A stretch of DNA of 64,000 nucleotides, from positions 30,158,099 through 30,222,098 of the forward strand of contig CM119263.1 of assembly GCA_051294375.1 (NCBI GenBank). The letters are read 5' to 3'. Shown here piece after piece: positions 12,126 to 56,229 of the stretch; positions within the stretch are counted from its first letter, which is position 1, and each line of letters opens with the position of its first letter. The position numbers and the translations under genes are program-made. The notes beneath the pieces were generated by a model, which ran no database searches, had not been told where the DNA came from, and worked only from the letters and a program-made list of their open reading frames with translations. Origin of the DNA: Paraspadella gotoi. Lineage: Eukaryota > Animalia > Chaetognatha.

Positions 12126-30195
<18,070 letters not shown>

Positions 30196-31114: not shown

Positions 31115-34096
31115 ATGGATTCTTTCCGTCGCCTAATAAATTCCCCACGATTTCAAAAAAGCAAATTTGCGATTTCCTTAATATTTTCTTCGATCTTTTA
31201 TGTGGTTGACGTAGGATCTGATGTCGCATTGGGACTGGAGTATCTCAAAATCGAGTGAGTTATTGCAGTCGGGATTTGCAATAAGTTCACCCCTCCTGGT
31301 GACCCGGTGGCTCATTGAGCTCAAGAGTGAAGACCCTCAAGCACCGGGATCGATCCCCAATGGTACTTACCCGGCGGGAAGTTTGAGGACGGCCGTTAAC
31401 CGCCTTGAGGGCCTGGAAAACTCTCAAGCCTGGTTCCAAGTCCAAGACCCGTTCCATGGCTGCGTGAGTGGTGAGCTTTGGATCAGGCTGTAACACCATG
31501 TTACGAGCGGGTGATGAGCTCCGTCTCTCTTAACTGCTCGGCGACCACCGGTCTAGAACGCCTGGCTTGACTCTTGCACCAATGGCCTCTGGGAGGTGGA
31601 TTTTAGTCCACCATAGCTCGAACTTTTAGCTATCGCTCGCACTATTAATAATCGTATAAATATATAATATAATAATATAAACTATGGCCATTTTTCTCCT
31701 CCAGCCCAACCAAGATAGACGGATTCATAATCTATGTCGGCGTCTTTACTCTCATTTTCGCCTTCCTTCCTTTCGTCGCCTTCGTCCTTCTCTCTATCAT
31801 CTGGTGGAAGCGGCGCCGCTTCGTCGGCCGGCGGGCGGCGCTTCTGCTGCTGGCGTCCTTTGTCGGTCTCACGCCGGTCGTGATCAACATGATGGCGGTG
31901 AAAGAAAGGCTGATGGGGGGAGGGGAGGAGGAGGAAGAGGAGGATGAGGAGGAGGTGGAGAGGAAGAGGAAAATTAAAGCGGAGAAGATAAAGAAGGAAG
32001 TGAGTAGAGGAATTAAGAGTTTCTCGGAGAAAAATAGTATCAAATTGGTACAACCAATATAAAAATTATCCATTCATTTAATAAATAAGCTATCTTGCCC
32101 CTGACTTTGGACAGGCTTTGGTGGTTTAAGGCCTCCATCACTCTTACAAGATAATGACATAGCAGGTCCCTGCAAGCTTTCCTATAATAATTCTTATAAT
32201 AAAAATGTTCATAATCTACAGTATTTGTAAAAAAAACTTGGTGTACAATGAAGCAAAAACAACAACAGACTGTTTTTGTAAAATACCATATCCCTATCAG
32301 AACATACGATTCTCGTCAGTGATCTATTACAATAACAATAGCCAATTATACTCAAGTTAATCCTAAATTAAGTTACATTTTCCATCCATTTCTGTTTAGC
32401 CTTTTACATTTTCAATCTTGATAAATAACTTCATAGCAAGAACGATGTCTAATGACTTTAATGTCTCGTATTTCGTTTAATAAAAAATATGGTTAGTTAC
32501 TAAGCTTAAGATTATATAAATCTAACATTTATGTTCATAATATAATCTAATATAGACAAGAACGATTGACCGCTACACTGCTACTAGTATCATTTTATCA
32601 TTATATCTTGTTATCATTTTATCCTTTTATCATTTTATGCATATATCAGTTTATCAGCTTACAAGATAGAGGCTCACCCTATCGCCAGGGCCTTTCTCCC
32701 CCCCGATCTTCTCTCCCCCCTCTCAACGTCTCCTCCTCCTCCTCCCTTCGGCGTCCCCTCCTCTTCATCCCCGAGTCAAGGATCAGAGTCTTGGAGATCG
32801 GCAGTTCAACTTCTCCTCTCGGTCTCGGGGTCTGCAAACCTTCCCTCTCCCTTCTCTCCCTTTTATGTACCCTTGTTCCCATTGTTATAGCTACTTACCT
32901 ATTACCAATATATTCCTTACCCTACTTACCTCTTTTACCTGATGAGAGACTAGTCAGAACCTCCCTTTAGCTAGATACCCATATTCCCAGGCTTATAATT
33001 TTATTTATTTATTAACACCCTTACTTCTCCCTTTTTAAGGCTGAAGCGTTCCGCTTCTTCGAGACTCTCCTGGAGTCGACCCCTCAAGTCCTGCTCCAGT
33101 TCATAGCCATCTCTCTCTTTGACGAGGTCTTTCTGCTCCAGATCATCTCCATTTGCTCCTCTTTCTGGAGTCTAGGAGTCGGAATCGTCGACGGGTGGTT
33201 GGCGCTTGGAGGATGGGGAGTTCACAAGGTTGACAGTGATAGTGACAGTGAGAGTGACAGCGACACTGAGTCGACAAGGTTTACAGAGACTGTGATGCAG
33301 TTAGTGGCACTGAAAGTGGTAAAAGGTCGACAAGGTTGATAGAGACACTGACGTTAAAATTGACATTGACACAGACAGTGATACTGAAAGTGACAATGAT
33401 ACCGAGTCGACAAGGTTGGCGATAACAGTGAAAGTAACAGTGACTCTGAAAGTGACCACAACACTACGGTAGCATTTTCAAAGCTGATGCAACTGATTTA
33501 AACAATAAGATTGATATAGACAGTAATACTGTAGCTGACCCTGACCTGTGTAAGTGTGTAAGTTGACCTTGGCTGTGGTATTCATGGAGACAGATTTTGA
33601 CTTCGTCATTGACGTAAACCTTTATACCGACATTATCATTGTCATTAACTAAATAACACTGACCTTAAATCAATACTATCACCGACCTCTATCATTATTA
33701 GCGACACTGTCCTTTGCCCTTCATTTGAAAACTGACTGACTGACAAACATTGACAATGACAACAGGGTTGACAAGCGTATTTTACAAAGATTGCTATCGC
33801 TGACTCTTTCTTTCCTCATTCCTCTCTCAGCCTTCCTTTCCTCTTCCTCCTATTTTCCTCTATCCGTGGATGTTGCTGCGGTTCCTCACTTTCCTTCCTC
33901 CCCTCGTCCTCTACATCAACCGAACTACATCCCAGGACGATTATTACTGGGTCCTTGTTTATTTCGTCTTTCACATCGTCGTCGCTCTCACTTGTATCAC
34001 TAAAGGTGAGACAGAGAGATGGAGAGAGAGAGAGAGTTCTACTAGTTCCTTTATTTCGTCTTCCACATCGCCATTGCTCTTACTTGTATCACTAAA

Positions 34097-34929: not shown

Positions 34930-36081
34930 ATTCTCACTCTCTCTCTCACTCTCTCTCTCTCTCACAGCTCCCCCTGCTTTCGTTCCCGATTTCATTTGGC
35001 CCGATCCGCTCGACACTTTGATTCCCTTTCGATCGTCCAGCATGAGATCCAAAATTTGGGTCACCTGCGTAGAAGAGGTAAGAATTTCGGCCTTATTTAC
35101 CCAGAAAGCCCCGGTTTATCCGTTTAGAGATGAAACAGACAGACTGACCGACGGTCTGATAGAAAGAGACGGACACTCAGATCGAATAAACTTTAGTTTT
35201 ATAAATCCCAGGATTTTTACTTGACCGGTCCTCGGCCCAGAAACTCTCCTCCTCTGCCCGACAATTTTCCGCCCTTCGACCCTTATCCCGACCCGGCCGA
35301 TTCTCTGCCTCCTTTGCCCGACCCTTGGATCGATGAATCACCATCTGCGCCCGATCCTTACCTTTTCCCAGATCCCGCTGATTCCTTATCCGATCGGCCC
35401 GACTCACCCGACGACAACGATTTCCCTGACCATTATTTTCCGCCGGACGGAGATCGCGAACCTTTTCCCAACACGGATCACCCCTTGCCCGACGATGCCG
35501 AAGATTTTCCTCCTTTGTCCGACTCTCCCGAGCCTTTCCCACCTTTGTCCGACTCCGCCAATCCTTTTTCAAATTATTTCCCTCCTCTGCCCGACGCCCC
35601 TCGCCCTCTCAACTCCTCCTCCGACTCCACGGCTTCGAACGGCAGACCCTCGAGCGTCCCGACCACTCGAGGCTACGTCTCATTCTCCGATTTCCTCGCG
35701 AGTCTCGACGAAGACGAACTTACTTTGAACTTACCCGATCCTTACGTCTACGGTTTCGGAGGCCCCGACCCTTTCGAGGAGGAAAACAAACCCACCCCGG
35801 CCACTTCGTTCCTCCGGCGGCCGCGATGTCTGGCTCCAGCGGTCGGTCACATTTACGGAGTCTTCTTCATCGGGTCCATCGTCAGTTTGGGATATTCGCT
35901 GGTGATGGTGATGTTGAGGTTGACGGTTTGGAGGGATAATGATGGAGAGAGGGAGGAGGGGGTGGAGGAAGGAGGGAGGGAAGAAGGGAAGGAAGGAAGG
36001 AGAGGGGAAGAAGAGAGAGCGGAGGAAGGAGGGAGGAGGAAGGGGAGAGAAGGGAACGGGAGAGAATGGAAGAGGGAATAG
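31115..36081 (+). CDS. XK-related (XKR, scramblase family) membrane protein. Exons approx. 31115-31254, 31705-31897, 32689-32829, 33040-33228, 33831-34005, (34395-?), ~34608-34757, 34967-35077, 35212-36081. The C-terminus may extend to 36981.
   Basis: TM1 IFYVVDVGSDVALGLEY, signature FETLLESTPQVLLQ, IISICSSFWSL, further hydrophobic exons. Middle exon boundaries and the E/R/G-rich tail are uncertain. Confidence 0.75.
31300..31628 (+). mobile_element. tRNA-headed SINE-like element in XKR intron 1
   Basis: GC-rich island with A-box-like tggctcattgag and B-box-like gggatcgatccc, a 3' hairpin ggtgga...tccacc and a T-run. Confidence 0.45.
32043..32182 (+). repeat. Interspersed repeat family A, copy 3
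   Basis: Same sequence as the 13283 and 37062 copies. Confidence 0.8.
33960..34220 (+). repeat. Three copies of an XKR exon end plus donor, separated by (AG)n
   Basis: tttcgtctttcacatcgtcgtcgctctcacttgtatcactaaag|gtgaga recurs degenerately at ~34052 and ~34161. Confidence 0.8.
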
Positions 36082-37061
36082 AGGAAGAAGAAGAGAGAAT
36101 GAAGGAAAGGGAGAGGGGGAAGGGGAGGAGGAGGAAAGAGGGAGGGAGGAAAGAGACGAGGAAGGAGGGAGGAGAGAGGAAGGGAAGAGAGTGGAGGAAA
36201 GAGGGAGAAGGGAAAAGGAGGAGGAAAGTAGACTGTTGGAAGGAGACGGAGAAAAAGGAGGGAAAATAGAGATAGGAGGAAAATCAATGGAAGAGGAGGT
36301 GGGAGAAGGAAAGAGAGAGGACAAGGAAAAGAATTATAGAAAAGAAGGGGAGAGGGAGGAAGAGGAAAGGGAGGAAGAGGAGAGGGAGGAAGGAGAGGAG
36401 GAAGAGGAGATGGAGGAGGAGGAAAGGGAGGAAGAGGGGAGGGGGAAAGAGGAGAGGGAGGAAGAGGAGAGGAAAAAGAGGAGGAGGAAGAGGAGAGGGA
36501 GGAAGAGGAGAAGGAGGAAGAGGATTGGGAGGAAGAGAAATCTGTCATTAAAGGAAAGAAAAGTAAAAATGAGTTGAGTGATGATAAAACTAAAGAAGAA
36601 ATGATAAGTGAAAAATCATTTATTGGGGAAAGAAATGATATGATAGATGATGATGATGATATGAGAGAGGAAGGAAGGGATGAGATTACAGAGAAGAGAA
36701 ATGAAGTGAGGAGTGATAGAGAGGAAATAAAAGAGAAAGAAGTTAATATAAAAATGGAAGAGCATGAAGAGACAGAGAGAGAGTCAAATGAAACTAATGA
36801 GATGAAGAGAAATGGGATAGAGATGGAGAAAAAAGGGATAGAGATGGAGAGAGAAGAAAGGAATGAAGTAAAAGACGAATTTATGTCAGGGGTACAGATG
36901 GAGGAAGATGGTGAGACAGATAAGAGAAACAGATGGGCTGATCTGAGGCAGATGTTGAAAGAAAATAAAAATAAACAATAATTATATTTGTATTAATTTA
37001 TTTAATAATCTGACTTTTTAAATCATATCCAGGATGATATGCCGTCCAGCGAAAAGTTATC

Positions 37062-37190
37062 CTTTCATTTAATAAATAAGCTGTCTTGCCCCTGACTTTG
37101 GACAGGCTTTGGTGGTTTAAGGCCTCCATCACTCTTACAAGATAATGACATAGCAGGTTTCTGCAAGCTTTCAATCAAGACTCTCTCAAG
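37062..37190 (+). repeat. Interspersed repeat family A, copy 4
   Basis: ttcatttaataaataagctgtcttgcccctgactttggacaggctttggtggtttaaggcctcc... Confidence 0.8.
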
Positions 37191-37324
37191 AGTCTTTTTC
37201 AAGATTTTCTGTGATAACGTATTTTAATTGTTATGGTATTGCATTATATTGTATTATGCCGAGTAAAATCCTACCAGATTAAAATATTGTTAAAGGATCA
37301 AACTTTGTTTTAATTTTCTCGATA

Positions 37325-38840
37325 TTATATTAGATTAGATTTATTCAAGAAGGACGGGCCGGGGGTAGGCCATGGGTCGCAGTTACAAATAATCACAGAC
37401 AGGTTTACAATTTAATCACAGCATAACGAAAACAATAGTTTCTAAATCCGTATCTTTTACTGGAGTCTGTAATTGAATCTTTTCATAACTCTTTTCAAAT
37501 ACAAACAGTATCCTATACAAAGAGAACATGGTTAAATCTTAAGTTTTAGAACAGAACAAAGATTTTTACAAAGGATAATTATTAGGTACTTCACTTAAAA
37601 ATTCAAAGGGACATATTGCCCTTCTGCTTACCCTAAAATCATTCATGTTTTCAATATATTTAGGTAAAAGGGGCGTTTTTTCAATCAAACCTCGCATTTG
37701 TAAATGTGCCCTCTTAATTATTCTAATACGCAATGGTTCTAAACCCAAATAATCCAAAACTAAGAAATTTGACATTGATCTTGGTACATTAGATATACTT
37801 TTTAAAAATCTAAACTCAACTGTCTCTAATTTATTCCATAGAGAGTTAGAAATAGTACAAAAACAGCACATGCTATACTCTAACAGTGAAATAACGAATA
37901 CCTTATAAAGTTCTAACATAATTTTACTACTCAGATATTTGTATTTAAATCGTAATTTGGACAATACTCCACATCTCTGTATCATACGTTTACATAAATT
38001 ATTAATGTGAATATTCCATTTTAATTTACTATCGAAGGTAACCCCTAAAAAAATTGCTTCCTGGACAATCCCAATTTTAACCCCAAATAATTCTAAGTCC
38101 AGACTACCGAACAACGCTCTTCGTCTCCTTGAAAAAATAATTAACTGACATTTATCTGGAGCTAATTTGAGGCGCCATTTACTGCACCACCTCTGGATTG
38201 CATCCATTGTCCTCTTCATTTCAAATTGGCACAACTCCAAGGACACTTCTGTAACCCAGTTTGCCGTATCATCCGCAAATTGACTATTCTCTACTATCTT
38301 TGGAACCTTATTGGTGATGTCGAATACGTAAATAGAGAAGAGGTCCGGTGATATAATTCCTCCTTGCGGACAACCACAAGACATGTAAATTTTTCTTGAG
38401 TTACAATCTCCGATCCTAACTGTAACAAATCTATTTGTAAGATACGAGTCAATTAGTCGAATGAGACTGTCCGGAAAACCCAGTTCCTTCATCTTTATAA
38501 TCAAACCATCATGCCAAACTCTGTTAAAGGCATCTTCCACATCATGAAAGATTGCAACTGTTATTTTATCTTTTTGAAACCCTCTCGTAATATCTTCCGA
38601 CAATCTAATCAAGTGTTCCTGAGTGGATCGACCTCGACAGAAACCTGCTTGAATAGGGTTTTTTATATTTTTGATATCCATATGCTTCAAGATTGAATCC
38701 CGGATAAAGTGTTCGTATAATTTACCGACGCAGCTCAAGAGACTAATTGGTCGAAATCCTTTCACGGAGTCTTGCGGTTTCCCCTTTTTCGGAATCATAT
38801 TTATGACGGCATTTCTCCATTTCTTAGGGAAATCTGCAAA
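37325..38840 (-). mobile_element. 5'-truncated non-LTR retrotransposon (Jockey/I-like LINE). RT ORF 37566-38798 is intact.
   Basis: FPKKWRNAVINMIPKKGK, FRPISLLSCVGKLYE, QAGFCRGRST, DVEDAFNRVWH, GCPQGGIISPDLF, FADD, FLGVTFDSKLKW. No endonuclease domain. Short (aatct)-like 3' tail near 37325-37340. Confidence 0.92.
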
Positions 38841-39147
38841 AGATAATCTTTTGTTTTTATTTTAATTTCCTTGTTTATGTCCAGAGGTCGCTCTTTGCAA
38901 AGAAACCGAGTCTTCCAGCTGAATTGAGTTTCGCTTTGAATATTAAACTGATTCCATATTTCGATTTTCGATTCTCTTGTGGAACTCGTGGCTTCGTCTC
39001 TCTCTCTCTCTCAATATTTCTCTGTCTCTCTCGCTCTCGCTTTCAACATTACTGATTATTTAGCATGCGTTTCGTGATACACGTTACAAACTTTTAGAAT
39101 GTATATCAAAATTTTTGGTTTGCTAATTTGAATCGATTTTTATTACT

Positions 39148-39215
<68 letters not shown>

Positions 39216-39651
39216 GCCTGCCTGTATTTCTCTCTCTCTCTGTCTCTCTTTTTTTCTTTTTTTTTTTTTGAATTCTTTTCTCACAGTTTTGATGTTAAAC
39301 GTTCGTATCTTTAAATACAATGTCCGAAATTAATTTATTAAAATTCTGATGATATAATGATGATTGTATTAGCAGTAATAACGATAATATTAATTAAAGA
39401 AATGAAAATTGTCGATCTCAACTATTAATTATGCTCTTTTTTTTGTAGATGTTTTCAGACGTCTGGTCCCAATTATTTCATCTGTAAAGATAGCTACGTT
39501 TTTAAGAAAACAAAAATAATCAGTAATTACCGTAAGATTAACAACAAATAGAAACTCGTGGCGAAAAACTTGGACTATTTAATGTTAACAAAATTTAATG
39601 TTAACAAACGTAAACAAATAAAAGGATCGATCGATCGGAAAATAAAAAAAA

Positions 39652-42600
39652 ATGAACGTCGCTCGATCTCCTGTGAGAAAAAAACGACGATGGATCGAAG
39701 AAGAGGAAGAGGAAGAGGAAGAGGAAACTCTTTCTAATTGCGTCTTCAAGAAAGAATCGGATCGAGTCTATGACCCTGTTGCAGATGTTGGGACGGGAAG
39801 CGATGAAAATCTCCGCAAAATCGCTAAAACGAATCGTACGGATATTGGGATGGATGGACTCATTGGCGATGACGCGGGTCAGAAGAGAGAGACGGACGAA
39901 TGGATCGAACATGGGATTAAATTGTGGAACGTGATGAATTTAAAGTGCGAGGACGGCGGCGGCGGTGGCGGCAGAGGCGGCTGCGGCAGCGGCGGCAGCG
40001 CCAGCGTCAAAAATGAAGAAATTTATGAGGAAATAATTGATTTAACGACGGAAACTGAAGATGAATCTCAGATTGAAAATAACTGGTACAAAATTGAGAA
40101 ATATGAAGCAGACAACTTCGTTACTGAGGATCAAATTGTCGACTTGACTGGAAGCGAAAGTGAAATGGAAAATGAAGAAGATGATGATAATGAAGAAGAA
40201 ATGAAACCAGAGACCAAAATACAAAGAAATTCACCCGTGAAAAAAAATGTAAATGTTGAAATGGACACGTCTCGGATAACAAGACGTATAAACGTCGACA
40301 TGAACGGCATCTCAATTGAAGAAATGAATCCAGAGACCGAAATACATAGAAATTCACTGGTAAAAAAAAATTTTAACGTTGAAATGGACACTTCTCGGAT
40401 AACAAGACGTAGAAACGTGAACTTTAACGACATCTCAGATGATGATGATTTTAGCTCAATGACAAGAGGCATACTGCAAATTCCCAATGAAAGCGAAATG
40501 AGATTTATTTTTTGCATAATATCCAGCATTAAACAATTTTCCGCGAGAACGGCAAGAATTCTATGTAATTATGAACCTCACTTGGAAGAAATTAAATACA
40601 ATGGGATTCGATTACCAGTTGATTCATTAAAAAAAATCGAGAGAATTGAAGATATGAACGGTGCCTTTTTTTCCCTTTACATTTATCAGTGCAAAAAAAT
40701 TGACAAAAAAGAATACCAACTTTGTCCCTATTACATTTCAAAAAAAAATAATACTCATGAAGTTTTTTTGTGGTTGGTTAACGAACAAAAATCGCAGTAC
40801 AAGGTGATTAAGTGTCTCTCTATATTCATGAGAAACTTTTTTATCCCAAAAGGTAGAAGAAAATATTATTGTCCAAAATGTGTGTCTCAGTTCAACAAAT
40901 CTGTTTTAAAAGATTCTCATCAAAGAGAATGTCGTAAAGAATTCAAGAGCATTAAATTTTTCTTGAAACCCAAAAAAAAGCACCATATTCGTGAAATTCA
41001 TAAAAACATTATAATGGGAAGAAGTAGTGGTAATTCCCCCAATGATGGTGAAATTCAAATTGATGACAAAATGAATAATAAAACTAATGATGATGACAAA
41101 ATGGAAGATCAAGCTAACAAAAAATTTGATATAGATATTGAATCAGATGAAAATGAGACAATTGAGTCTGAAGAGCAAATACAAGATAACAAGAAACTGG
41201 ATAATAAAGGAGAAAAAGAAGAAACAAACCGTAATAAAAATATTTATACTGATTTAAATAATGAAGTAATGATCAAAGCAAAAGACAGGCAAAGAAGGGC
41301 GAAGCACACAGATGAATCAATTGAAAATTCAAAACAATGCGTTGATGTGGATAATAGAATGGTTGAAAATGTTGAAGGAGAAAATCAAATGAATTCAAAT
41401 GAAAAACATTTTTCTAATCAAGTGGAAAAAAATTTGAAAAAAGAAAATGAAATGGAAAACGGCAATAATCTGAATGAATTAGATGAAGAATTTAATTCAA
41501 GCCATGATCAAGGTAATGTAATTAATCAAGATGAGGAAAGCAAGAAAGAGAATGATGAAATACCATTAAAACAAGAAAATGAAGCAAAATCTTCAATTGG
41601 ATTACAACCAGATGGCGATCATGTCTTTGGAAACAGTGCAGATGACTTCTCTGACATAAAGTCAACTGAAATAAAACTATCCAATAATGATCAAAAAAGT
41701 TCAAGCAAAGATGACAACTCAGGACACCTTTATTTTAATAAGGTCATTGTCAAAGAAAAACCCGATTTTGTTTTGCATCATTATGAAGCCGCATTGGGAC
41801 AAATATGTCAAAGTTACTACTTTATTCCTCAACAGGAATTGAGTGATTATGTGGAGTTGCTCAAGAAAGCAAGGCCATTATTCTGCGATATTGTTTCGGC
41901 CAATCTTAAGAGGCACAAATCACTCAAGTTAGTAATTCAAGTGAAGATGACATTTTTTGCTGAAGATAATAAAAACAAAAACAACAAGACTGATGAAAAT
42001 TATCTTTTTAATTATGAGCCAACGCTTGCTCCACTAACCATTGCCTACTCTAGCAATGTTAGCAAGTCGGTAAACTACTTGTTTGACCAAATATTTGTGA
42101 AAATTGAAGAGATCCTGACACTGAAATCTGACTTAGTCTACTTTTTTACTAATTTTTTGAAGCTGAACGTTATCCAATTTATGAGCATCAGCGCAGGAAG
42201 TCAAGCAAAACTCCCGACCATAATTGCTATGAAACGTGCTACAATCAATGTACCTGATGAGAGAAATATGTGCTTGGTTTACTGCATCATTGCAAGCATT
42301 TTTAATATCTCTGGTTCCTCTTCAATACGTTTTAAATCATATACTCCATATTTGAGCAAAATAAATTTTAATGGTATAAAATTTCCCATAACATCCATAG
42401 CTTCAATTAAAAATATTGAGAAAATAAATGATAAGTTGTTTTCCATTTATATTTATGCATATAGGCTAACCAAAAAAGGATGTGAATTTTACCCTTATTA
42501 TGTTTCTGATATAAATGAGGCTCGACATGAAGTGTATTTGTTGTTAGTCGGTGAAGAAAATTCACATTTTGTTGTAATAAAAAGTTTACAACGGCTCATG

Positions 42601-45600
42601 AAAGGTATTGCTAGTAAAAGTACCACTTCTAAATTCTTTTGTCCCAAGTGCCTTCATCATTTTGGAAAACGAGTCTTGAGAGATTCTCATAAAGCAACAT
42701 GTAACAAGGCATTAAAGAATCAATTAACTCTTCCGCCAAGAAGCACCTCAATAACATTTAATAATCATAAGCATCTTAGTAGAAATAGTTTTTTTATATG
42801 TTCACAAGGAGAAGCTTCATACCGAATAACCAGAACTGGAGTTCAATGTTCAAAACCTGAGAGTCAAACGAAAAAGTATTCTTGGGTCAAATACCGTTAT
42901 GAAGAAATTCACTGTCGGAAGTGTGAACGATGTACTGATGACTTACCCTGCGGGGATTTAATGAAAAAAAGCAACCTGTTCTGTAGTTTGGATCTGTCGG
43001 CCTTTGCCTACAACATCATTGCTACTCACGATGAAAATATTAGTATTCCACTAAGATCATACCGCGCCCAGAGTGAGCATGAGGTTAATGATCAAGTGGT
43101 AAAGCAAAAGTTTTTAGACTTTTTATGTGACGACGCGATTTTTCTCAAAGATTTGATGAAGAAAACACCTGGGGAGTCAATGACCAAGGAAATGGCTGAA
43201 GCGACGCAATGTTCCTTGTGCAAAGTAAAGTTTCCTCTGAACAAGTCGGATCCTTTGTTTCACAAACACAGAAAATGCATTTATCAGATTAATTCCCAAA
43301 CTGAGTCTAGTGACATTGCAAACGACAAGGTTCCTTCAAGATATACCTCCGTTTGTTTTTCTTGCAGCTCGTCTCTCAAGGAACGAAGGAAGACTCCTGT
43401 CTATTTTAATCAAGACTCAGTAAACTTGTGTCATTTAGTTATCAGCTGTGCGGGATCATTTCCTGAATATATTAAAAGACTTTACATATTTGGCGAGCAT
43501 GACGAAAAAAGTAAGTCGGTTTCTTTGCTGCTCAATTGCGTTGATTGCAGGAGATTGAAAAAAGAGAATATGGAAAAAGATAAAGCAGTAATTGTCAGTA
43601 GCACCAAAGATAGTACGGAAGATCAAAATAAGTCGCCAAGATTGGATGAGAATGAGCCAAGTCTCAGTCAAGAAACTGACAAAGTGGATCTTGACTCAAT
43701 GACGAATGCATCTGACAATGATGATGATGATTATGATGACAATGATGATGAAGTTGATGCCTCTGAGGATGATATTGATGGCAATGAATCAGATTCCAAC
43801 AAAGGGGGAAAAAGGGAAAAATGTTACATCAATAATGAGAGGCAAAAATCTTGCGCGTCTTGTAAGAAAATGATTGGTTTCAAGTTCATTAATTCTCGCA
43901 GTTTCCTAAATCTGAGCTTGGAGAAAATGGCCGAATCTTTGGGATCAAACTTTAGCCCAGTCACGTGCAAAGAATGTGGAGAGAACATGGAGAAGCAAAA
44001 ACATTGTGGTCGGTGTTTGCAGAAATGTAAAGCAACATTCAATCAGACTTTTCAGTACCTCTCAGAATGTAAAGAGGCGACACTGTTTCCCAAGAACATA
44101 AAGAAAAGCCAATTAATTCACGATTACGCGAGTCAACTCAGACACTGGAATGAGAGGCAATTCCCGAGTTACAAACAATTATATTCTGCAACAGATCAAA
44201 AATCTGCAATAGAATACAATGAAGCTATTTCGCTCTACAATCGATTGAACTGCCAGAACATTGGCGAATTTGTACTGCATCGATTAAGATTGGACGCAAC
44301 TTTGTTAACCGATGTGATGATAAACTTTCGAAACATTCTCTTCGATAATTTTGGTCTCGACATCATGGGCTATGGGAACATCAAAGATTTTGTTTATGAT
44401 GCTGCAAAAAAAGTATGCAATCTACAGATGGATTTTTCGCCATCGGTGGAGATGCACGAGGAGTTTCTAGATGGAATAAAAGGTAGATTTTCTAACATCT
44501 CTCACAAATTCTTTGCCAGCAATGACGAGGCCATCCCACCAATACCAAGAGAGTACGCCGCTCTCACTGACAGCCTTATTAGCATTGGTGAGAGAACTTA
44601 CAAATATAAACATCAGGTTCCTTCTCAGCAAACTCCTGGTTTAAGATCCTGTGAGAAGGACAACACTGAGACGTGGTCAGGTTTCTTTGACAGTTGCTTC
44701 AATCGGTGTAACCTTTTATCCTTGAGCATCAACGATTTTTATTCTTTCATCATGAAAAATTATCCACTTCCTTACAAAGATTTTCGATACTTGGAAGGAG
44801 ACGAATTGAAAAAATTGAGCGAGGAATTTTTCACTCAGCAGGGAAAAAATATCCAGAACTTTGGAGAAGATGGATTTTTATTGACTGTGGATCTTGAGTA
44901 TCCACCTGAAATCCAGGAAGAACTGGAAGCTTTTCCTCTTCTGCTGGAGAAGAGAAAAGTTAAAAGAGAAGAACTCTCTCTCTTCACGAAAAGTCAATTG
45001 CAGGAAACGGATGCAGAACCGGGCGACGCTGAAAGACTAATTGCCGATTTTAAGCCTAAGACGAAGTATCAAATTCATTTCGTTTATTTGAAGTTTGTGC
45101 TGAGCAAAGGTGTGCGCTTGTTAAAAATTCATTCGGCGATAGCGTTCAAGCAAAAGGTTTTGTTTCGTGATTTTTTCAAACTGACTTTTGAGTTGAGAGA
45201 GAAAAGTCGAACAGATCTTTTTTCATACAGTATATATGAAACACTATTGGATTCTTTATTGGCGAAACTGTTAGAAAGTGAGCACGACAAGTTTCAGTAC
45301 ACTTATGTCTCCCAACGAAGAAAGGCTTTCAAGTTTATCAGCGACTATTCATTTCTCGATTGCGCCGTCTTGTCCCCAAAAAGCTTGATTGTAAAGTCAT
45401 TTGCCGGCAAAGTACCTATGAAAAAACCAGTGTACCTGGCAAACGTCATAATGGATTTGGCCAAGTGTTTTTTGGTCCATAAAGTCCATGATTCTATTTT
45501 GTCAGCTTTTAAAATAGATGGGACCAAAAATTGTTTTGTCTTTTCCGCGGAATCAGATTCCGTTGGCGTCGCCTGTTTCTATGATTCCCGAATCCAAGGA

Positions 45601-46278
45601 AACGATTACTTCTATAAAAAGATGGCAACTTTGGCATCGGATCTGGACGTAAGCTCGTATGATCTACATCATCCCTACTTTGCTTTGAATCCCGACAATA
45701 AATCTGATCTGATTTCCCTGCAAAGGAAGAACGCGGGTCGACCGGGAAAATTCAAAGACTCGCTCGACTCGGACGAAATTTTAGCGCAATTCGTCGGCCT
45801 CAGGCCTAAAGTTTTCTCTTACTTGATTTACAACACGAGGACGGGAGTTTTTAGAGAAAGGGAGACGCCCAAATTTAAAAGGAATGACCTTCACTTCAAC
45901 TATGCCATTTCAACCAAGAATCAGTTTGTAAAAACCCCGGATTTAGTGAGCAATCAACATGCGACTTATCTTGGGGAATTAGCCAATCATTGCGCGAGGC
46001 ACAGCGACACAAAATTATATTGGTTGAATAGCTTGAAGAGTCTGCCGTTTCATCACAGAGACGTAGGCGAGATAGAGAAATTGATGGAGACACAAATTCC
46101 GCGTAGAATCAAAGAAAAAATAATTCTTGCGTCGATTGAGAGAGATGATGATGATGATGAGGATGATGACAACGACGTTGTCACCTCCAACCAGCCACCT
46201 CCATCCCAGACTCCAAACGCTGCTCCTTGTCAAGACAACCAATCCGGAAATGAATCACCCATTGGTGAAACAGTTTAA
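39652..46278 (+). CDS. 2208-aa intronless protein derived from a Polinton/Maverick/Adintovirus-type protein-primed DNA polymerase B, catalytic motifs degenerate
   Basis: Colinear remnants: LPTIIAMKRATINV..NMCLVYCI, INFNGIKFP, FYPYYVS, HEVYLLLV..SHFVVIKSLQRL, CPKC..H..C, FINSRSFLNLSLEKM, DATLLTDVMINFR, GIKGRFS, LPYKDF, GFLLTVDLEYPPE, YQIHFVYLKFVLSKGVRLLKIHSAIAFKQ, KPVYLANVIMDLAK, GKFKD, FVGLRPKVFSY. Confidence 0.88.
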   Translation: MNVARSPVRKKRRWIEEEEEEEEEETLSNCVFKKESDRVYDPVADVGTGSDENLRKIAKTNRTDIGMDGLIGDDAGQKRETDEWIEHGIKLWNVMNLKCEDGGGGGGRGGCGSGGSASVKNEEIYEEIIDLTTETEDESQIENNWYKIEKYEADNFVTEDQIVDLTGSESEMENEEDDDNEEEMKPETKIQRNSPVKKNVNVEMDTSRITRRINVDMNGISIEEMNPETEIHRNSLVKKNFNVEMDTSRITRRRNVNFNDISDDDDFSSMTRGILQIPNESEMRFIFCIISSIKQFSARTARILCNYEPHLEEIKYNGIRLPVDSLKKIERIEDMNGAFFSLYIYQCKKIDKKEYQLCPYYISKKNNTHEVFLWLVNEQKSQYKVIKCLSIFMRNFFIPKGRRKYYCPKCVSQFNKSVLKDSHQRECRKEFKSIKFFLKPKKKHHIREIHKNIIMGRSSGNSPNDGEIQIDDKMNNKTNDDDKMEDQANKKFDIDIESDENETIESEEQIQDNKKLDNKGEKEETNRNKNIYTDLNNEVMIKAKDRQRRAKHTDESIENSKQCVDVDNRMVENVEGENQMNSNEKHFSNQVEKNLKKENEMENGNNLNELDEEFNSSHDQGNVINQDEESKKENDEIPLKQENEAKSSIGLQPDGDHVFGNSADDFSDIKSTEIKLSNNDQKSSSKDDNSGHLYFNKVIVKEKPDFVLHHYEAALGQICQSYYFIPQQELSDYVELLKKARPLFCDIVSANLKRHKSLKLVIQVKMTFFAEDNKNKNNKTDENYLFNYEPTLAPLTIAYSSNVSKSVNYLFDQIFVKIEEILTLKSDLVYFFTNFLKLNVIQFMSISAGSQAKLPTIIAMKRATINVPDERNMCLVYCIIASIFNISGSSSIRFKSYTPYLSKINFNGIKFPITSIASIKNIEKINDKLFSIYIYAYRLTKKGCEFYPYYVSDINEARHEVYLLLVGEENSHFVVIKSLQRLMKGIASKSTTSKFFCPKCLHHFGKRVLRDSHKATCNKALKNQLTLPPRSTSITFNNHKHLSRNSFFICSQGEASYRITRTGVQCSKPESQTKKYSWVKYRYEEIHCRKCERCTDDLPCGDLMKKSNLFCSLDLSAFAYNIIATHDENISIPLRSYRAQSEHEVNDQVVKQKFLDFLCDDAIFLKDLMKKTPGESMTKEMAEATQCSLCKVKFPLNKSDPLFHKHRKCIYQINSQTESSDIANDKVPSRYTSVCFSCSSSLKERRKTPVYFNQDSVNLCHLVISCAGSFPEYIKRLYIFGEHDEKSKSVSLLLNCVDCRRLKKENMEKDKAVIVSSTKDSTEDQNKSPRLDENEPSLSQETDKVDLDSMTNASDNDDDDYDDNDDEVDASEDDIDGNESDSNKGGKREKCYINNERQKSCASCKKMIGFKFINSRSFLNLSLEKMAESLGSNFSPVTCKECGENMEKQKHCGRCLQKCKATFNQTFQYLSECKEATLFPKNIKKSQLIHDYASQLRHWNERQFPSYKQLYSATDQKSAIEYNEAISLYNRLNCQNIGEFVLHRLRLDATLLTDVMINFRNILFDNFGLDIMGYGNIKDFVYDAAKKVCNLQMDFSPSVEMHEEFLDGIKGRFSNISHKFFASNDEAIPPIPREYAALTDSLISIGERTYKYKHQVPSQQTPGLRSCEKDNTETWSGFFDSCFNRCNLLSLSINDFYSFIMKNYPLPYKDFRYLEGDELKKLSEEFFTQQGKNIQNFGEDGFLLTVDLEYPPEIQEELEAFPLLLEKRKVKREELSLFTKSQLQETDAEPGDAERLIADFKPKTKYQIHFVYLKFVLSKGVRLLKIHSAIAFKQKVLFRDFFKLTFELREKSRTDLFSYSIYETLLDSLLAKLLESEHDKFQYTYVSQRRKAFKFISDYSFLDCAVLSPKSLIVKSFAGKVPMKKPVYLANVIMDLAKCFLVHKVHDSILSAFKIDGTKNCFVFSAESDSVGVACFYDSRIQGNDYFYKKMATLASDLDVSSYDLHHPYFALNPDNKSDLISLQRKNAGRPGKFKDSLDSDEILAQFVGLRPKVFSYLIYNTRTGVFRERETPKFKRNDLHFNYAISTKNQFVKTPDLVSNQHATYLGELANHCARHSDTKLYWLNSLKSLPFHHRDVGEIEKLMETQIPRRIKEKIILASIERDDDDDEDDDNDVVTSNQPPPSQTPNAAPCQDNQSGNESPIGETV

Positions 46279-47036
46279 GCAAGCTCTTGAGACAAAAACT
46301 CTTGCTCGCCACAGTGTATTTAACTTTCTATTGCAATGTCAAAAAAGCTTTTTTTTCAAATTTGTTCATTTTTATTAATTTTTATTGCTGAAATTATTAG
46401 CAATAAAGATGTATAATTCTCTATGAACTTTAAGTTTACATAGTAATTTGTTATTTATAAAATTTCTTTTTTTTATCTTTCTAAGTATATAATATTAACC
46501 AAGTATTTATTATTTTACCTGAGTATTTTTTATTACAGGGGTTTTTTATCATGTGTTATATTGATAATAATTCTTAATAATAACTGTTGATAATCACTGA
46601 ATATTTTGCAGTCCTAATATTTAGTGTACCCTGAGTATTGAGAAGATCTTTATGATTTTTTGGCTATTAAGATAGTTACATTATTAATATTGAACATTCC
46701 GTTGATTGTTAACCATGTTTTTTATGTTTTACATTAAAACATTCTAAAGAATAACATGGATGAAATTAAATACTTTTGTTTTTTTGGAGATTTCGTCGAG
46801 TCGCGATTTCGTTGGCCAGTCAGTTTAGTGGTCTTCGCCGCAGTAGTTAGTAAATGAAAAGAAATATGTAGTTATTATTTATAGAAATTGGTTAAAATTA
46901 TATATAAAGCTAAATAATTTTTCTATTAACTATTGAAATATAATCTTTATGAATATTATATTATGAATGACCACTCATTAACTTGTTCGATTTAGCAGAG
47001 CAGATAAGAACCAAGAATCTGAGAACTCTCTTAGTA

Positions 47037-47109
47037 GCCCGGTTAGCTCAGTCGGTAGAGCACAGGACTCTTAATCCTGGGGTCGTGGGTTCGAGCCCCA
47101 CATTGGGCG
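47037..47109 (+). tRNA. tRNA-Lys(CTT)
   Basis: GCCCGGTTAGCTCAGTCGGTAGAGCA CAGGA CT CTT AA TCCTG ...GGTTCGAGCCCCACATTGGGCG followed by T6. Confidence 0.96.
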
Positions 47110-47622
47110 AGTTTTTTACCTTAGATTAAGCTGCTTGTTTTCGTCATTATAATTTTATATATTTTGGTTAACTTTCTGGTCTAAAAGCTCAGAAAGTTTT
47201 TTTTAGTTTTGCTACATTTTTCTGAATAAAAATTATAATCATCAATTTGTTATTGTAACTAACAATGCTGCTTGGAGTACCGTTTTAATTTTCCTACTTT
47301 TTTTAATAATTTCCAGTTAAAATTTTAATGGATTTTTCTTACACTTAATATTATTTCGTTTTAATTCACTTTTAATCATTTTTTGTTTGTATTCTCTCTT
47401 TCTTTCTTTATTCTTTTCTTCATATCATGCCCTTCTGTAACACTTTTTCTTCCTTTCCCAAATTATTTATTTTCAATTATCATTATTATTATTATTAGCA
47501 TTGTTATTATTGTCATTATATTTTTATTTTCAAGGAAGAGAGGCATCAACGAGTTGATCCAACATTTCTCAAATAAAACAGTGTGAATAAAATCGGTGAC
47601 GTCATCGATGCGACTCTCAAAC

Positions 47623-50199
47623 TCATTCCCCGCATTTTTTGTTCGTCCAATATTCCCACATATCATCGTACCACGACGGTACGAGCGTCTCATTGTTCAA
47701 GGCCGCGCAGAGTTTACAGAACTTGTTCTGAGAACCGTCCTTGCCCAACCGGATCCTGTAATCCTTTCGCCATCGACGATATCGTTCGTACAGCGTCGCG
47801 TTCTTGTCCAGCAGCCGCACGTACGCTGCGAGTTGCTGCGGCGTAAACTTTCGTGCGTCGATGAAAGAATCTGGGGGAGCGTCGGCGTCGTAATCTCCGC
47901 CGCCGTAGACGATCGGGACGAGATCCGTGTACATCAAGATCTTCCACAGTTTCTCAGTGATGTAGTCGCGACAAAGTGAGTTTTCAAAGGACAAATAAAA
48001 CTTGTACTTTTTCGAGATCATTTCGTAGCAATCCTTTTCTACAGATCGCGAGCACCGCAGAGGACCGCAGGCGCCGTAGACGTCTACAGCAACGTATCTT
48101 TGAAGGCGCCGCACGTAATCTTCGCGTTGACTGCTCGTCTGACAATGAGACACCATCCAAACGATCGATGGCCCGCCACTCGTTCGTGCCCGGCGGGGCG
48201 AAGACTGACGGTCGTCGAGGCTCCTACGTTCCGTCAGTCCGTACGGGCCGGGAAAGTCGCTGTCCTTTCTGTACGTCATAGTCCAGTTGAACCAACCGTT
48301 CAAGATTCGGGTGTCCAGACCAGCGTACGGAGGGGGCTCATAGAGGAAGAACACCCATCGCTGATGAGCCGGCTTGGCTCGGGGCATGTCGTAGCCAGGG
48401 ACCAGGGAATTCGTCGCCGATTTTCTTACTGATGGAAAGATACTAAAATTATATTATTTAATATTTTTTTTAAATATGAATTACGTCCCTTAGAAAAATT
48501 AACACTATTACCCGATTTCTGTTCCTAATGACTGATCTTAATTCAAACCTTAATATTTAACTCTAATATTTTACTAAATGCTTAAGAAAAAGGGTCATTC
48601 AAATCAACTTCAAAATAGGCAGATTCAAAATAGTACAGATTCAGAAAGCTGAGCTCCTGGCGATTCCGAAAATGTATTCACTTTAAACATTTGATGCATT
48701 CTATGCCATTTTATATCGGTTTTAATTATAAAATAAAAGAAATCTATCTGAAGAAAAAACTAAAAAAAAACGAAAAAGCCAATCTATATGATATTTTTTA
48801 TGAATTTTTTATTACTGAATTAGAAAAATGTAATAGAGAGACATTTTTAAATTTCAACTTGTATCCTTGAAAATGAAACGTTTTTAAACTTTTTAAACTT
48901 CCTAACTTGAATGTCTCTCTATTACATTTTTACAAATGTTTTTAAGATTGCTAATCTTTATAAATATTCACACTATTCCTTTAGATTGCTAATCAAATTT
49001 TTAAATCAATATTATTGCAGTAGTTTGGCCTGGAAATCTTCAAATTCAGTGTAGATTCATTGTAGCTCAAATTTCTTTACCATCTATTTAACTGAAGATT
49101 TTGTTCATGACTTGAAAACCAACAGAGTAACAAGATTAATTGTTTAATTCTCCCCTTCAAAATTTCCCTTAACCGTGTTTTAACTTCTTACCTAGAATTT
49201 TTTAACAACCAGATTGAAAAACAAATCTTTAAAAAATGTGCTTACCCATTTAACTTGACAATTTTGTTATTTACCGATTTAAAAAAAAATAATTGAAAAC
49301 AGAATGTTTACATATAAATAAAAACTTATTTTTTTGTAATTACTGATGACTATAATGTATTTCTCGATGTATTAGCTCTAATACATCCATGATTACACAT
49401 TGTAATGGTGAATGACCCTTCCTCTTAACCTAAATTTTAAATCTAATCCAGAACCAATTCCCTAACCTTATTCCTTAATATTTAACCTTAATCCCTAAAC
49501 CAAATCCCTAACCTTAATCCTTAATATTTAACCTTAATCCCTAAACCAAATCCCTAACCTTATTCCCTAATCCAGAACCCAATTTCTCATCAGATAATTA
49601 TCCTACCCCCAAAACCCCAAATCTTAATTCAGACCCTAACCCTTAATTCTAAATTCAATCTGAAATAAGGTTTTGGAAAATATGGCCTAAAAGTTATTTA
49701 AAATAGTAGTTGAAAAACCTTATGTACAGACAGAATGACAAACAAACAGACTGAAAGTTAGACAGAAAGACCGACAATAACCCCCCCCTTCATTACCGAT
49801 GTTCCGTATGTGAAAGACCACGGCGTCAGCCTCCATCAACCGACTTCTGTCAGTCGTCGTTTCACAATTTGTCTCCAAGCAACGATGATCCACAAAAGGT
49901 TGAGATCCTTGTCCGAACCCGTAGTATCGATTCTGATAAAAGGGGACCCAAAAGAGAATGACCCTTTTTTGTCGACCTCTCCGCGTCGTCTCGTGGACTT
50001 CTTTGTCGGTCTGTCGGCTCGTCGGTCGACGGATGAGGATCGAGGAGACGCTGGAGCCGATCCGGTCCACAATGATCCCTCCGTTTCTAGCGACGACGAC
50101 GTTGTATAAGATGCAAACGGTCGTCAAGGAAACGAAGAGGATGAGAAAGAATTTTTTGTCCTTAAATTGGGAGAAAACTGTTTCTTCGTTGGGCATCAT
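47623..50199 (-). CDS. Alpha-1,3-fucosyltransferase (GT10). Exons 50199-49797, 48428-47623
   Basis: Type II N-terminal TM, ILFW, C..T.DRS..ADAVVFH, QRWVFFLYEPP, FNWTMTYRKDSD, WMVSHC, VDVYGACG, alpha3-FucT motif YKFYLSFENSLCRDYITEKLW. Phase-1 intron is consistent. Confidence 0.95.
48585..49200 (+). repeat. Left arm of a ~600-bp inverted repeat (in FucT intron 1)
   Basis: aaaagggtcattcaaatcaacttcaaaatagg...gctgagctcctggcgat...gttcatgacttgaaaaccaacagagtaacaagattaattg...cttacctaga is the reverse complement of 50275-50910. Confidence 0.85.
49420..49688 (-). mobile_element. MITE-like family B copy (cctaa core)
   Basis: ccctaaccttaatcc repeats, end ggttttggaaaatatggcc. Confidence 0.5.
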
Positions 50200-50274
50200 T
50201 TTATGTTCATCAGTTGTGTTTTTGTTTTGTTTTTGTTTTGGTTGAATTTTGTTTTAATATTATTTGTTCTTTGG

Positions 50275-50910
50275 TTTTTTTCTAGGTAAGAGGTTAAAAC
50301 AAGGTAAAGGAAAATTTAGAAGGGAATAATTAAACAATTAATCTTGTTACTCTGTTTTTTTGGGTTTTTTTTGTTTGTTTGTTTTTTTTTGTTACTCTGT
50401 TGGTTTTCCAGTCATGAACAAAATCATCAGTTAAATAGATGGTAAAGAAATTCAAGCAACAATGAATCTACACTGAATTTGAAGAGTTGCAGCTTAAATG
50501 ACTGCAATAATATTGATTTAAAAATTTGATTAGCAATCTTAAAAACATTTGTAAAAATGTAATAGAAAGACATTTTGATAAACGCGTTCCAGCTAGGAAG
50601 AATTCAGGTTTAAAGTTTAAAAATGTTTAATTTTCAAGTTGAAATTTAAAAATTTCTCTTTATTACATTTTTCGAATTCACTAATAAAAAATTCATAAAA
50701 AACATCAGATGGATTGGCTTTTTCATTTGACCTGCAACTCTTCAGATAGGTTTCTTTTATTTTATATTATAATTAAAACCGATATAAAATGGTGTAGAAT
50801 GCATCAAATGTTTAAAGTGAATACATTTTCGAAATCGCCAGGAGCTCAGCTTTTTGAATCTGTACTATCTATTTTGGCCTATTTTGAAGTTGATTTGAAT
50901 GACCCTTTTT
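50275..50910 (-). repeat. Right arm of the ~600-bp inverted repeat (upstream of the FucT ATG)
   Basis: tctaggtaag...tgttactctgttggttttccagtcatgaac...atcgccaggagctcagc...gaagttgatttgaatgacccttttt. Confidence 0.85.
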
Positions 50911-55362: not shown

Positions 55363-55435
55363 GCCCGGTTAGCTCAGTCGGTAGAGCACAGGACTCTTAA
55401 TCCTGGGGTCGTGGGTTCGAGCCCCACATTGGGCG
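55363..55435 (+). tRNA. tRNA-Lys(CTT), identical to the 47037 copy
   Basis: Same 73-nt sequence, followed by a T-run. Confidence 0.96.
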
Positions 55436-56229
55436 AATACTTTTTTTTCTTCATTTAGTTTTTTTTGTGACTGAATAGCGGTGAGAGGGCGCGGAGGAAG
55501 TTTTTGAAGAGAGAGAGAGAGGTGATTGAAAAGAGAGGGTGTGGTGATTAAAAAAAGAGAGTGAGGTGAATGCAAATAGCGAGTGAGTAGATTAGAAAAA
55601 GGAGGGTGGTAAGATGAAAAATTTAAAGAGAGAGAGTGAGGTGATTGCAAGTAGAGGGTGTTGTGATTAAAGAGAGAGAGTTAGTTTATTTAAAACAGGG
55701 TGTGGGGATAAAAGATAAAGTGCGGTGACTTTGTAGAGAAAAAGAGTGATATGATTAAAAAGACAGGGTAAAGAGTAATAAGAGACATGGCGATTGCTTG
55801 ATCAATTGATTGGTCAATTGATTGGTTAATAGGGGGTCAATAGGTCAATATTCAATTGATTAAAATTAAAATTTGTCCCGGTCACAACCTTTTAAGTCCA
55901 TGTTCCATTTGCCCCACGCTGCTGACCTGGTGCATCTAAGGAAAAAGCGACGACGACGACGACGACGACGACGACGGACCACCGAAGCTTTTATTGGCGT
56001 TCGAACGACGACGCGAAAAACGACGACGACGACGACGACGAAACCAAAGCTTCTATTGTCGTTCGAAACGACGACGACGACGACGATGAGAACGACGACG
56101 GAAACGCGGTGCATTTAAACTTGCAATCGACGAACATCCTGTTGCCAAACACTCACCGGCACCAAACACATTTCCACTTTTAAAAATAACAAAAAACTTT
56201 ATTTTTAAAAAAATTAACCGGCAAACGCA

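What the first reader, a model, noticed from the sequence alone, without database searches (positions are those of the whole stretch)
39652..46278. Solitary, intact but apparently catalytically dead Polinton-type DNA polymerase B: candidate domesticated viral/transposon gene
Seen: a 6.6-kb ORF with no stops or introns in a genome whose genes are split into small exons. It is colinear with Maverick/Adintovirus pPolB from the N-terminal module to FVGLRPK. The catalytic motifs are degenerate against the family consensus: ExoI YADFE->CSQGE; endonuclease VII DHCH->RKCI; ExoII HNLSGYD->NQDSVNL; Pol motif A YLDANNLY->SLSINDFY (~44716-44742, catalytic Asp lost); motif B KLMNNxxFGK->ETLLDSLLAK (~45238); motif C YTDTDS->SAESDS (~45544). 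No integrase, capsid, ATPase, adenoviral protease or TIRs were seen nearby; the flanks are a LINE, microsatellites, tRNA-Lys and a host FucT. Inference: keeping a full reading frame while losing the active sites points to selection for a non-enzymatic host function (DNA-binding scaffold, dominant-negative restriction of Polintons, genome maintenance) rather than neutral decay.
Basis: partly seen in the sequence, partly recalled or inferred. Interest (0 to 1): 0.9.

Follow-up and report, generated by a model that had tools for sequence, protein, structure and literature searches.

The report
Dead Polinton polymerase kept by host
An animal genome carries, alone between its own genes, an unbroken gene descended from the DNA-copying enzyme of a virus-like Polinton element that has lost most of its catalytic residues but kept its fold and the key residues of a built-in protease, so it is likely a viral gene repurposed by the host, possibly as a defence against such elements.

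Summary
Observation confirmed. Window 39652-46278 (+) is one stop-free 2208-codon ORF, colinear with Polinton/adintovirus protein-primed PolB (profile E 1e-129; fold hits to adintovirus PolB and phi29). It lost 10 of 13 scored catalytic residues; none of its 150 best database hits lost more than 3. No other Polinton gene or inverted repeat lies in the 64 kb. Selection on the protein is shown internally: fold-type residues are kept, motif residues are preferentially lost, and an internal duplicate has dN/dS about 0.33.

The terminal-protein domain (conserved Ser) and the OTU protease Cys/His pair are intact. A second, dead OTU-zinc-finger copy exists. The added N-terminus has an NLS-like and two SUMO-interaction-like motifs. 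The odd insertions are inherited from an active-looking PolB subfamily, not host inventions.

Not shown: expression, copy number, orthologues, or that the selection happened in the host; codon GC is un-host-like. Best reading: a domesticated pseudo-polymerase (about 0.7), most likely a SUMO-recruited nuclear decoy/protease against Polintons (about 0.4). No precedent was found in 9 literature searches.

The parts
39652..46278 (+). Single-exon ORF, 2208 aa (P0001): pPolB-derived pseudo-polymerase
   Evidence: HMM of 27 pPolB ORFs from viral contigs E 1e-129
39440..39458 (+). Two candidate splice acceptors (T-run + AG at 39447-48 and 39457-58) for a possible non-coding 5' exon; untested
   Evidence: sequence
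39676..39690 (+). RKKRR, NLS-like basic cluster (aa 9-13); motif class recalled
40033..40149 (+). Two SIMb-like motifs, IIDLT (aa 128-132) and IVDLT (aa 162-166), each followed by Ser/Thr/acidic residues
   Evidence: 0 of 31 relatives have one; two copies in 0 of 20000 shuffles of aa 1-700; 1 of 150 hits has one; VIDLT/VDLT cores in PMC3901395 passages
40195..40445 (+). Recent in-frame 123-nt (41-aa) tandem duplication, 85% identical
40444..40956 (+). vOTU-zinc-finger copy 1, protease-dead (Arg284 and Gln382 at the Cys and His positions; 4 of 4 zinc ligands kept; no TP in front)
   Evidence: (39% identity to copy 2, E 2e-42)
41737..42186 (+). Terminal-protein (LF/PAD-fold) domain; conserved loop Ser826 kept
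   Evidence: Z 9.0 to Pol kappa/eta little finger; Ser in 102 of 109 hits
42187..42741 (+). vOTU-zinc-finger copy 2 with Cys874 and His972 kept
   Evidence: OTU folds, Z up to 7.7; Cys 110 of 110, His 116 of 118 in hits
42742..44718 (+). Exonuclease region with inserted endonuclease-VII-like finger and subfamily-specific Cys-pair and acidic insertions; catalytic sites degenerate
44719..46071 (+). Palm/fingers/thumb; motifs A and B lost, motif C half kept
46402..46407 (+). AATAAA, 124 nt after the stop; candidate poly(A) signal
   Evidence: the only one before the tRNA

Best explanation
The gene is a Polinton-derived polymerase that has lost most of its polymerase and proofreading catalytic residues but kept its fold, and it is likely now a host gene whose product would act in the nucleus as a SUMO-recruited decoy and protease against resident Polintons. 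Shown: origin, domain order, loss of catalytic motifs, solitary position and purifying selection on the protein. Inferred step 1: the NLS-like motif takes it to the nucleus, and the tandem SIM-like motifs tether it to poly-SUMOylated chromatin or nuclear bodies. Inferred step 2: the dead polymerase body, with many conserved basic residues kept, and the terminal-protein domain still engage DNA ends or terminal-protein-capped linear DNA without extending them, blocking the active viral enzyme. Inferred step 3: the OTU domain that kept its Cys/His pair cleaves pPolB precursors or removes ubiquitin in trans, while the dead second OTU-zinc finger serves as an extra binding module. Odds: host-domesticated about 0.7; this particular anti-Polinton role about 0.4.
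For: Intact 2208-codon frame; under neutral substitution P(no stop) is 0.001 at only 2% divergence, while the branch is several substitutions per site long (quick trees). It keeps 62 of 122 near-invariant exo/pol columns, against 83-99% for each of 24 relatives, and 17 of 23 in TP-vOTU-ZnF. Motif residues are lost more often than others: 23 of 33 against 37 of 89, Fisher P 0.008 (I chose the motif set after seeing the table). Changed core positions stay hydrophobic: 93 of 126 and 22 of 26, above all three neutral nulls. Duplicated vOTU-ZnF: dS 1.65, dN 0.54; 20 of 1350 neutral simulations reached the observed pS-pN, mostly where alignments shrank. All 8 Cys of the insertion pairs match active-looking P0083. 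Near-invariant basic columns kept: Lys 8 of 14, Arg 2 of 3. No other Polinton gene: 244 ORFs by tblastn gave one marginal flank hit (E 0.048), and the 13 non-PolB family HMMs gave none. No flank inverted repeat bounds the ORF. Host genes lie close on both sides. NLS-like and SIM-like motifs sit in an N-terminal region about 700 aa long that the relatives lack.
Against: No orthologue among 1.84 billion cluster representatives (best hit 30% identical, with intact motifs), nor. Expression and copy number are untested. GC3 of 0.37 resembles the adjacent LINE (0.34), not three host exons (0.57-0.66). The insertions I first read as host novelties are shared with active-looking P0011 and P0083. Keeping Cys and His by chance is not unlikely (about 0.09-0.26 at the observed loss rates, my arithmetic). 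The Asp three residues before the Cys is Arg here (Asp in 77 of 110 hits). The basic residues are kept no better than other conserved columns. Both models were built on alignments of intact relatives, so they lean toward the family fold. Nothing here shows SUMO binding, DNA binding, proteolysis or an effect on Polintons.
Confidence: 0.4

Rival explanations
1. Domesticated, but for general host chromatin or genome maintenance: a SUMO-recruited deubiquitinase or protease on a DNA-binding scaffold, no longer aimed at Polintons.
For: The same evidence of selection and solitude. The SIM-like pair plus OTU fold is the toolkit of host nuclear regulators. Inactivated B-family domains are thought to play structural roles, e.g. 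in Pol epsilon (PMC5499653 passage).
Against: Retention of the whole viral architecture, including the terminal-protein Ser, is easier to explain if a viral partner or substrate is still the target (inference). No orthologues were found, so it is not a broadly conserved housekeeping factor.
Confidence: 0.3
2. The inactivation and the selection happened inside a virus or helper-dependent mobile element, and this copy is a young passenger insertion with no host role.
For: Viruses do keep inactivated PolBs (poxvirus F12, herpes UL8; PMC5499653 passage and references). GC3 is un-host-like. No orthologues. Unchecked earlier notes report polymerase-only Polinton derivatives in other genomes. An intact frame only requires that selection lasted until recently.
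Against: No element ends, mirror arm or companion gene in 64 kb. None of the 150 best hits is similarly dead, so no such viral lineage is on record. An element whose only gene is a dead polymerase has no evident way to spread.
Confidence: 0.23
3. It is still a (weak) polymerase, using Glu1967/Asp1969 or shifted acidic residues.
For: The second motif-C Asp, the motif-A Tyr and the KxY Lys are kept. Krupovic et al. reversed an earlier 'inactive' call for Tlr1-like palms (PMC11161782).
Against: That reversal rested on motifs A and B being conserved; here both are lost, including the motif-A Asp present in 24 of 24 relatives and the motif-B Lys. Total loss is 10 of 13 scored residues. I could not inspect model coordinates for compensating residues.
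Confidence: 0.05
4. A neutrally decaying Polinton relic or an assembly artefact.
For: 96% of vertebrate Maverick loci are eroded relics (PMC8097293 passage).
Against: Those relics carry stops and frameshifts. Here about 345 site-equivalents could mutate to stop and none has, and the constraint signals are present.
Confidence: 0.02

Closest known systems
Polinton/Maverick (adintovirus) pPolB, TP-vOTU-exo-pol type with an endonuclease-VII insert (probably Starrett's Beta class; inferred from the lack of a PF03175 hit)
   Same: Domain order TP, vOTU, zinc finger, exonuclease, palm; folds; 20-30% identity; vOTU Cys/His and TP Ser kept.
   Different: Polymerase and exonuclease motifs lost; about 700 extra N-terminal residues with NLS-like and SIM-like motifs and a dead second vOTU-ZnF; no integrase, capsid, ATPase, protease or TIRs.
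Unnamed insertion-bearing pPolB subfamily (P0011/P0164 and P0083, ENA fragments)
   Same: Shares the Cys-pair/acidic insertions, a longer stretch before motif A and the insertion after motif C.
   Different: Their covered catalytic motifs are intact; only fragments are known and their context could not be fetched. The tree join with P0011 is a long-branch join.
Inactivated B-family polymerases: Pol epsilon C-terminal module, the archaeal inactivated PolB family, poxvirus F12, herpesvirus UL8 (as cited in PMC5499653)
   Same: Polymerase fold kept without catalysis; presumed structural role.
   Different: None is described there as a Polinton protein-primed enzyme taken over by an animal host, and none carries TP and OTU modules.
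Adenovirus and bidnavirus pPolB (PMC11161782)
   Same: One module of the TP-vOTU-pPolB polyprotein is kept in dead form.
   Different: Mirror image: they keep the polymerase and lose the protease; this gene keeps the protease pair and loses the polymerase.
Endogenous-virus-derived restriction factors such as Fv1, and domesticated transposases (recalled, not from a call)
   Same: A single mobile-element gene kept intact after the element is gone; dominant-negative decoy logic.
   Different: Those derive from capsids, envelopes, integrases or transposases; here the source is the replicase. Function untested.

Membership tests
Polinton-type pPolB protein | N-terminal terminal-protein domain (LF/PAD fold) with a conserved loop Ser/Tyr | tested here: met
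   Z 9.0, rmsd 2.9, 104 aligned; Ser826 matches 102 of 109 hits. That this Ser is the linking residue is my inference from PMC11161782.
Polinton-type pPolB protein | vOTU domain with catalytic Cys and His | tested here: met
   (best OTU Z 7.7, rmsd 3.4, 95 aligned; many OTU rows); met for copy 2, not for copy 1
Polinton-type pPolB protein | Protein-primed B-family polymerase fold | tested here: met
   Foldseek: phi29 E 1.4e-10; adintovirus PolB E 1e-38; model built on an alignment of relatives
Polinton-type pPolB protein | Intact polymerase motifs A, B, C | tested here: not met
Polinton-type pPolB protein | Intact ExoI, II, III | tested here: not met
   only the ExoI Glu and the ExoIII Asp remain
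Polinton/Maverick element | rve integrase, capsid proteins, packaging ATPase and protease linked to PolB | tested here: not met
   over the whole window; the families used were identified
Polinton/Maverick element | Terminal inverted repeats | tested here: not met
   no flank-to-flank match bounds the ORF
Domesticated mobile-element gene | Intact frame under purifying selection | tested here: met
   internal evidence only, cannot be dated to the host phase
Domesticated mobile-element gene | Single or low copy number | not testable with these tools
   no genome held; one copy in the window
Domesticated mobile-element gene | Syntenic orthologues in related species | tested here: inconclusive
   none found, but the neighbouring FucT exon product was not in the collection by exact sequence either, so the lineage may be unsampled
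Domesticated mobile-element gene | Expression from a host promoter | not testable with these tools
   no read data obtained; only candidate acceptors and AATAAA
Poly-SUMO-binding protein | Tandem SIMs that bind SUMO chains | tested here: inconclusive
   motifs present and above chance; binding not tested

The most novel reading that the evidence does not exclude
An animal has turned the replicase of an endogenous DNA virus into a SUMO-targeted antiviral factor: the dead polymerase and terminal protein trap Polinton genome ends, and the still-active viral OTU protease cuts the virus's own polymerase precursor in trans. It would be the first restriction factor known against Polintons and the first host gene built from a protein-primed polymerase.
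Probability: 0.3. Interest if true: 0.9.

Novelty: new variant of a known kind. Interest (0 to 1): 0.7.

Why it matters
Domesticated viral and transposon genes are a known kind, but I found no described case built from a Polinton polymerase (9 full-text searches; 6 look-ups of earlier scan notes). A passage in PMC8097293 calls exaptation of Maverick sequence only theoretically possible. How animals hold Polintons in check is not addressed in the papers I read. A solitary gene that kept the terminal protein and the protease pair, dropped catalysis and gained SUMO-reader-like motifs gives a concrete candidate. It is also a natural test of the predicted, unproven role of the vOTU domain in cutting the terminal protein from pPolB.

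Tried and rejected
Pfam and PDB sequence searches on the whole protein found nothing; the origin came from homologue and fold searches.

Searches for orthologues or dead relatives:
- 7 distant pPolBs.
- (shorter proteins): none.
- (subfamily profile): 1 distant hit.
- 3453 hits; the best 150 were examined and none is an orthologue.
- Contig scans with the query and with P0011, P0083 and P0164: none.
- ESM Atlas: generic pPolB clusters for aa 691-2150 and nothing reliable for aa 1-700 (low recognition).

Ideas rejected:
- That the insertions and Cys pairs are host gains (shared with P0083 and P0011).
- That P0011 is an orthologue (motifs B, C and KxY intact).
- A palindromic polymerase-only element (no mirror arm).
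- PIP-box or PxVxL motifs (none).

Caveats on controls:
- The 24 viral loci were fetched with patterns that require intact motifs A and C, so their intactness is circular; the 150 hits are the unbiased control.
- Both trees are quick trees with the query on a long branch; I draw no donor from them. L001 was left out; one search used only the 30 hits closest to P0011.
- Foldseek on the TP-vOTU model gave no match at E <= 0.001; the wide structural search was used instead.

Rfam found only tRNA-Lys in 36000-48000. No complex prediction was run, as no SUMO or viral partner of this host was available. No supplements were read; they might list inactive pPolB copies.
Full report
The observation. The ORF is real: 39652-46278 on +, 2208 aa, no stop, no N inside it, with an in-frame stop six bases upstream. 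The window is animal host DNA, with small exons of CCDC113/96, TDP-43, BBS7, an XK-related gene, a fucosyltransferase and a ligand-gated channel. No whole genome was held and no read data were obtained, so copy number and expression are open.

What it descends from. Pfam and PDB sequence searches were blank. Residues 840-2150 found 7 proteins of 20-22% identity. An alignment of these fetched 24 viral loci, whose recurrent neighbours include rve integrase, A32 ATPase, double jelly-roll capsid and phospholipase A2 genes; those with such neighbours are Polinton-like. A profile of their polymerases matches the ORF at E 1e-129. The model of aa 1030-2160 (pLDDT 69.8, pTM 0.74) matches phi29 polymerase (E 1.4e-10) and adintovirus/MELD PolB (E 1e-38). 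The model of aa 690-1043 (pLDDT 79.6) splits into a little-finger/PAD fold (Z 9.0) and an OTU fold (Z up to 7.7, many OTU rows). This is the terminal protein + vOTU arrangement described in PMC11161782 (parts 1-3 of 6 read). Both models used alignments of intact relatives and so lean toward the family fold. The relatives tested did not hit PF03175 and carry an endonuclease-VII insert, which I infer places them in the Beta class of PMC8502044 (passages and sections 3.1, 3.3 read).

Is it dead? Against 24 relatives it keeps 62 of 122 near-invariant exo/pol columns, where each relative keeps 83-99%. Lost are the ExoI Asp, the ExoII His/Asn/Asp, the ExoIII Tyr, the motif-A Asp, the motif-B Lys/Asn/Gly, the first motif-C Asp and the KxY Tyr. 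Kept are the ExoI Glu, the ExoIII Asp, the second motif-C Asp and the KxY Lys. Because the viral loci were fetched with intact-motif patterns, the fair control is the 150 best of 3453 hits from a search with the ORF itself. Of 15 scored positions, 100 hits lost none, 43 lost one, 6 lost two and 1 lost three, while P0001 lost 10 of the 13 covered. PMC11161782 warns that loss of the first motif-C Asp alone is compatible with activity, but there motifs A and B were conserved; here they are not.

The TP loop Ser826 (Ser in 102 of 109 hits), vOTU Cys874 (110 of 110) and His972 (116 of 118) and all four zinc ligands are kept; TP-vOTU-ZnF keeps 17 of 23 near-invariant columns. A second vOTU-ZnF at aa 265-435 is 39% identical to the first, more than to the viral relatives (21-27%), so it arose in this lineage. 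It has Arg and Gln at the catalytic positions but all four zinc ligands. The added N-terminus carries RKKRR and two [VI][VI]DLT motifs followed by acidic residues. None of 31 relatives has such a motif, 1 of 150 hits has one, and two arose in 0 of 20000 shuffles. VIDLT and VDLT are the SIM cores of PIAS1 and RNF4 (PMC3901395 passages). Against over-reading: the dyad could survive by chance (about 0.09-0.26), and the Asp three residues before the Cys is Arg here, although it varies in the family (77 of 110).

A correction to my own first idea. P0001 has 233 residues of insertions against typical relatives, several with new Cys pairs. The best hit, P0011 (30% identity), and P0083 share them while keeping the catalytic motifs they cover; all 8 Cys of the four pairs align with P0083. 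The insertions are therefore inherited from an active-looking subfamily. Its context could not be found, and its tree join with the query is a long-branch join.

Selection. About 345 site-equivalents of the ORF can mutate to stop, so survival is 0.001 at 2% neutral divergence, against branch lengths of 4.8 and 6.0 per site in quick trees. Motif residues were lost more often than other conserved columns (23 of 33 against 37 of 89, P 0.008; set chosen from recalled motif definitions after seeing the table). Changed core columns stay hydrophobic (93 of 126; 22 of 26). The duplicated module has dS 1.65 and dN 0.54 over 164 codons; 20 of 1350 neutral simulations reached that gap, 3 of 900 at the two lower mutation loads. 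The recent 41-aa repeat points the same way (dS 0.31, dN 0.10), but its bootstrap interval touches zero. So the protein was constrained as a folded object while catalysis was abandoned. These tests cannot say whether that happened in the host or in a virus.

Solitary? tblastn of 244 ORFs from the viral loci gave one marginal hit outside the ORF (E 0.048, 27 aa). Profiles of 13 non-PolB families gave none in six frames. No inverted match bounds the ORF. FucT ends 1.3 kb downstream. XKR exons are Pfam-supported to 33336, and exon-like frames continue to 36981 (inferred), with a LINE fragment in between. There is no room for a 15-20-kb element. Two candidate splice acceptors lie about 200 nt upstream and one AATAAA 124 nt downstream. 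Against long residence: GC3 is 0.37, like the LINE (0.34) and unlike three host exons (0.57-0.66), and no orthologue was found. The lineage may simply be unsampled, since the neighbouring FucT exon product was not in the collection by exact sequence either (a weak test).

Mechanism. I put domestication at about 0.7. Within that, the most economical reading of what was kept (TP, protease pair, zinc fingers, polymerase body) and gained (NLS-like and SIM-like motifs, a dead second OTU) is a nuclear, SUMO-recruited decoy. It would occupy Polinton DNA ends without copying them and would cut pPolB precursors or ubiquitin in trans (0.4). A general host chromatin role is nearly as likely (0.3). A virus-borne dead polymerase recently dropped here gets 0.23, residual polymerase activity 0.05, and neutral relic or artefact 0.02. 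Every functional step is inferred.

Comparison with what is known. It works like other pseudo-polymerases (Pol epsilon C-terminal module, archaeal inactivated PolB, poxvirus F12, herpes UL8; PMC5499653 passages). It is the mirror image of adenovirus and bidnavirus pPolB, which keep the polymerase and lose the protease. It is pPolB-derived but fails membership as an active pPolB and as part of a Polinton. Nine full-text searches and passages of PMC11089739, PMC10175614 and PMC8097293 showed no host gene derived from a Polinton polymerase. The library lacks most subscription papers, and no supplements were read. Earlier scan notes hold nothing on this locus; their unchecked polymerase-only elements shaped one rival.

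Verdict: real and unusual, a new variant of a known kind.

Noticed in passing
window 48630-49197 and 50280-50868: Long inverted arms (segments 87-95% complementary) bracket the FucT N-terminal exon at 49723-50253; possibly a fold-back or MITE pair around a host exon.
   Followed up: no
window 14304-30192: BBS7 exons are spread over 16 kb; a 385-aa stop-free frame at 16923-18080 (-) with no Pfam hit lies within that span.
   Followed up: no
window 37052-37188: A small repeat with three more copies in the window (4740-4877, 13296-13432, 32061-32181; 86-96% identical), probably a short mobile element.
   Followed up: partly
window 47037-47109 and 55362-55436; 57410-57981: Two 99% identical tRNA-Lys(CTT) genes and a cluster of three tRNA-Ala genes.
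   Followed up: no
P0164/P0011 and P0083: These active-looking relatives begin or end abruptly at motif A or motif B with low-complexity, intron-like read-through, suggesting intron-split pPolB genes; DNA not available.
   Followed up: partly
P0047, P0172-P0176: Biomphalaria glabrata LOC106055486 is annotated as an uncharacterised gene with isoforms but encodes a pPolB with intact-looking motifs and a repeat insertion before motif A.
   Followed up: no
P0003: The Tetranychus T1JU36 record contains motif C twice in a tandem duplication; it may be an annotation artefact.
   Followed up: no
window 39652-46278: CpG observed/expected falls from 1.5 in the first 1.1 kb to 0.45-0.69 in the middle; could reflect a host-derived 5' end or methylation of the gene body.
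   Followed up: partly
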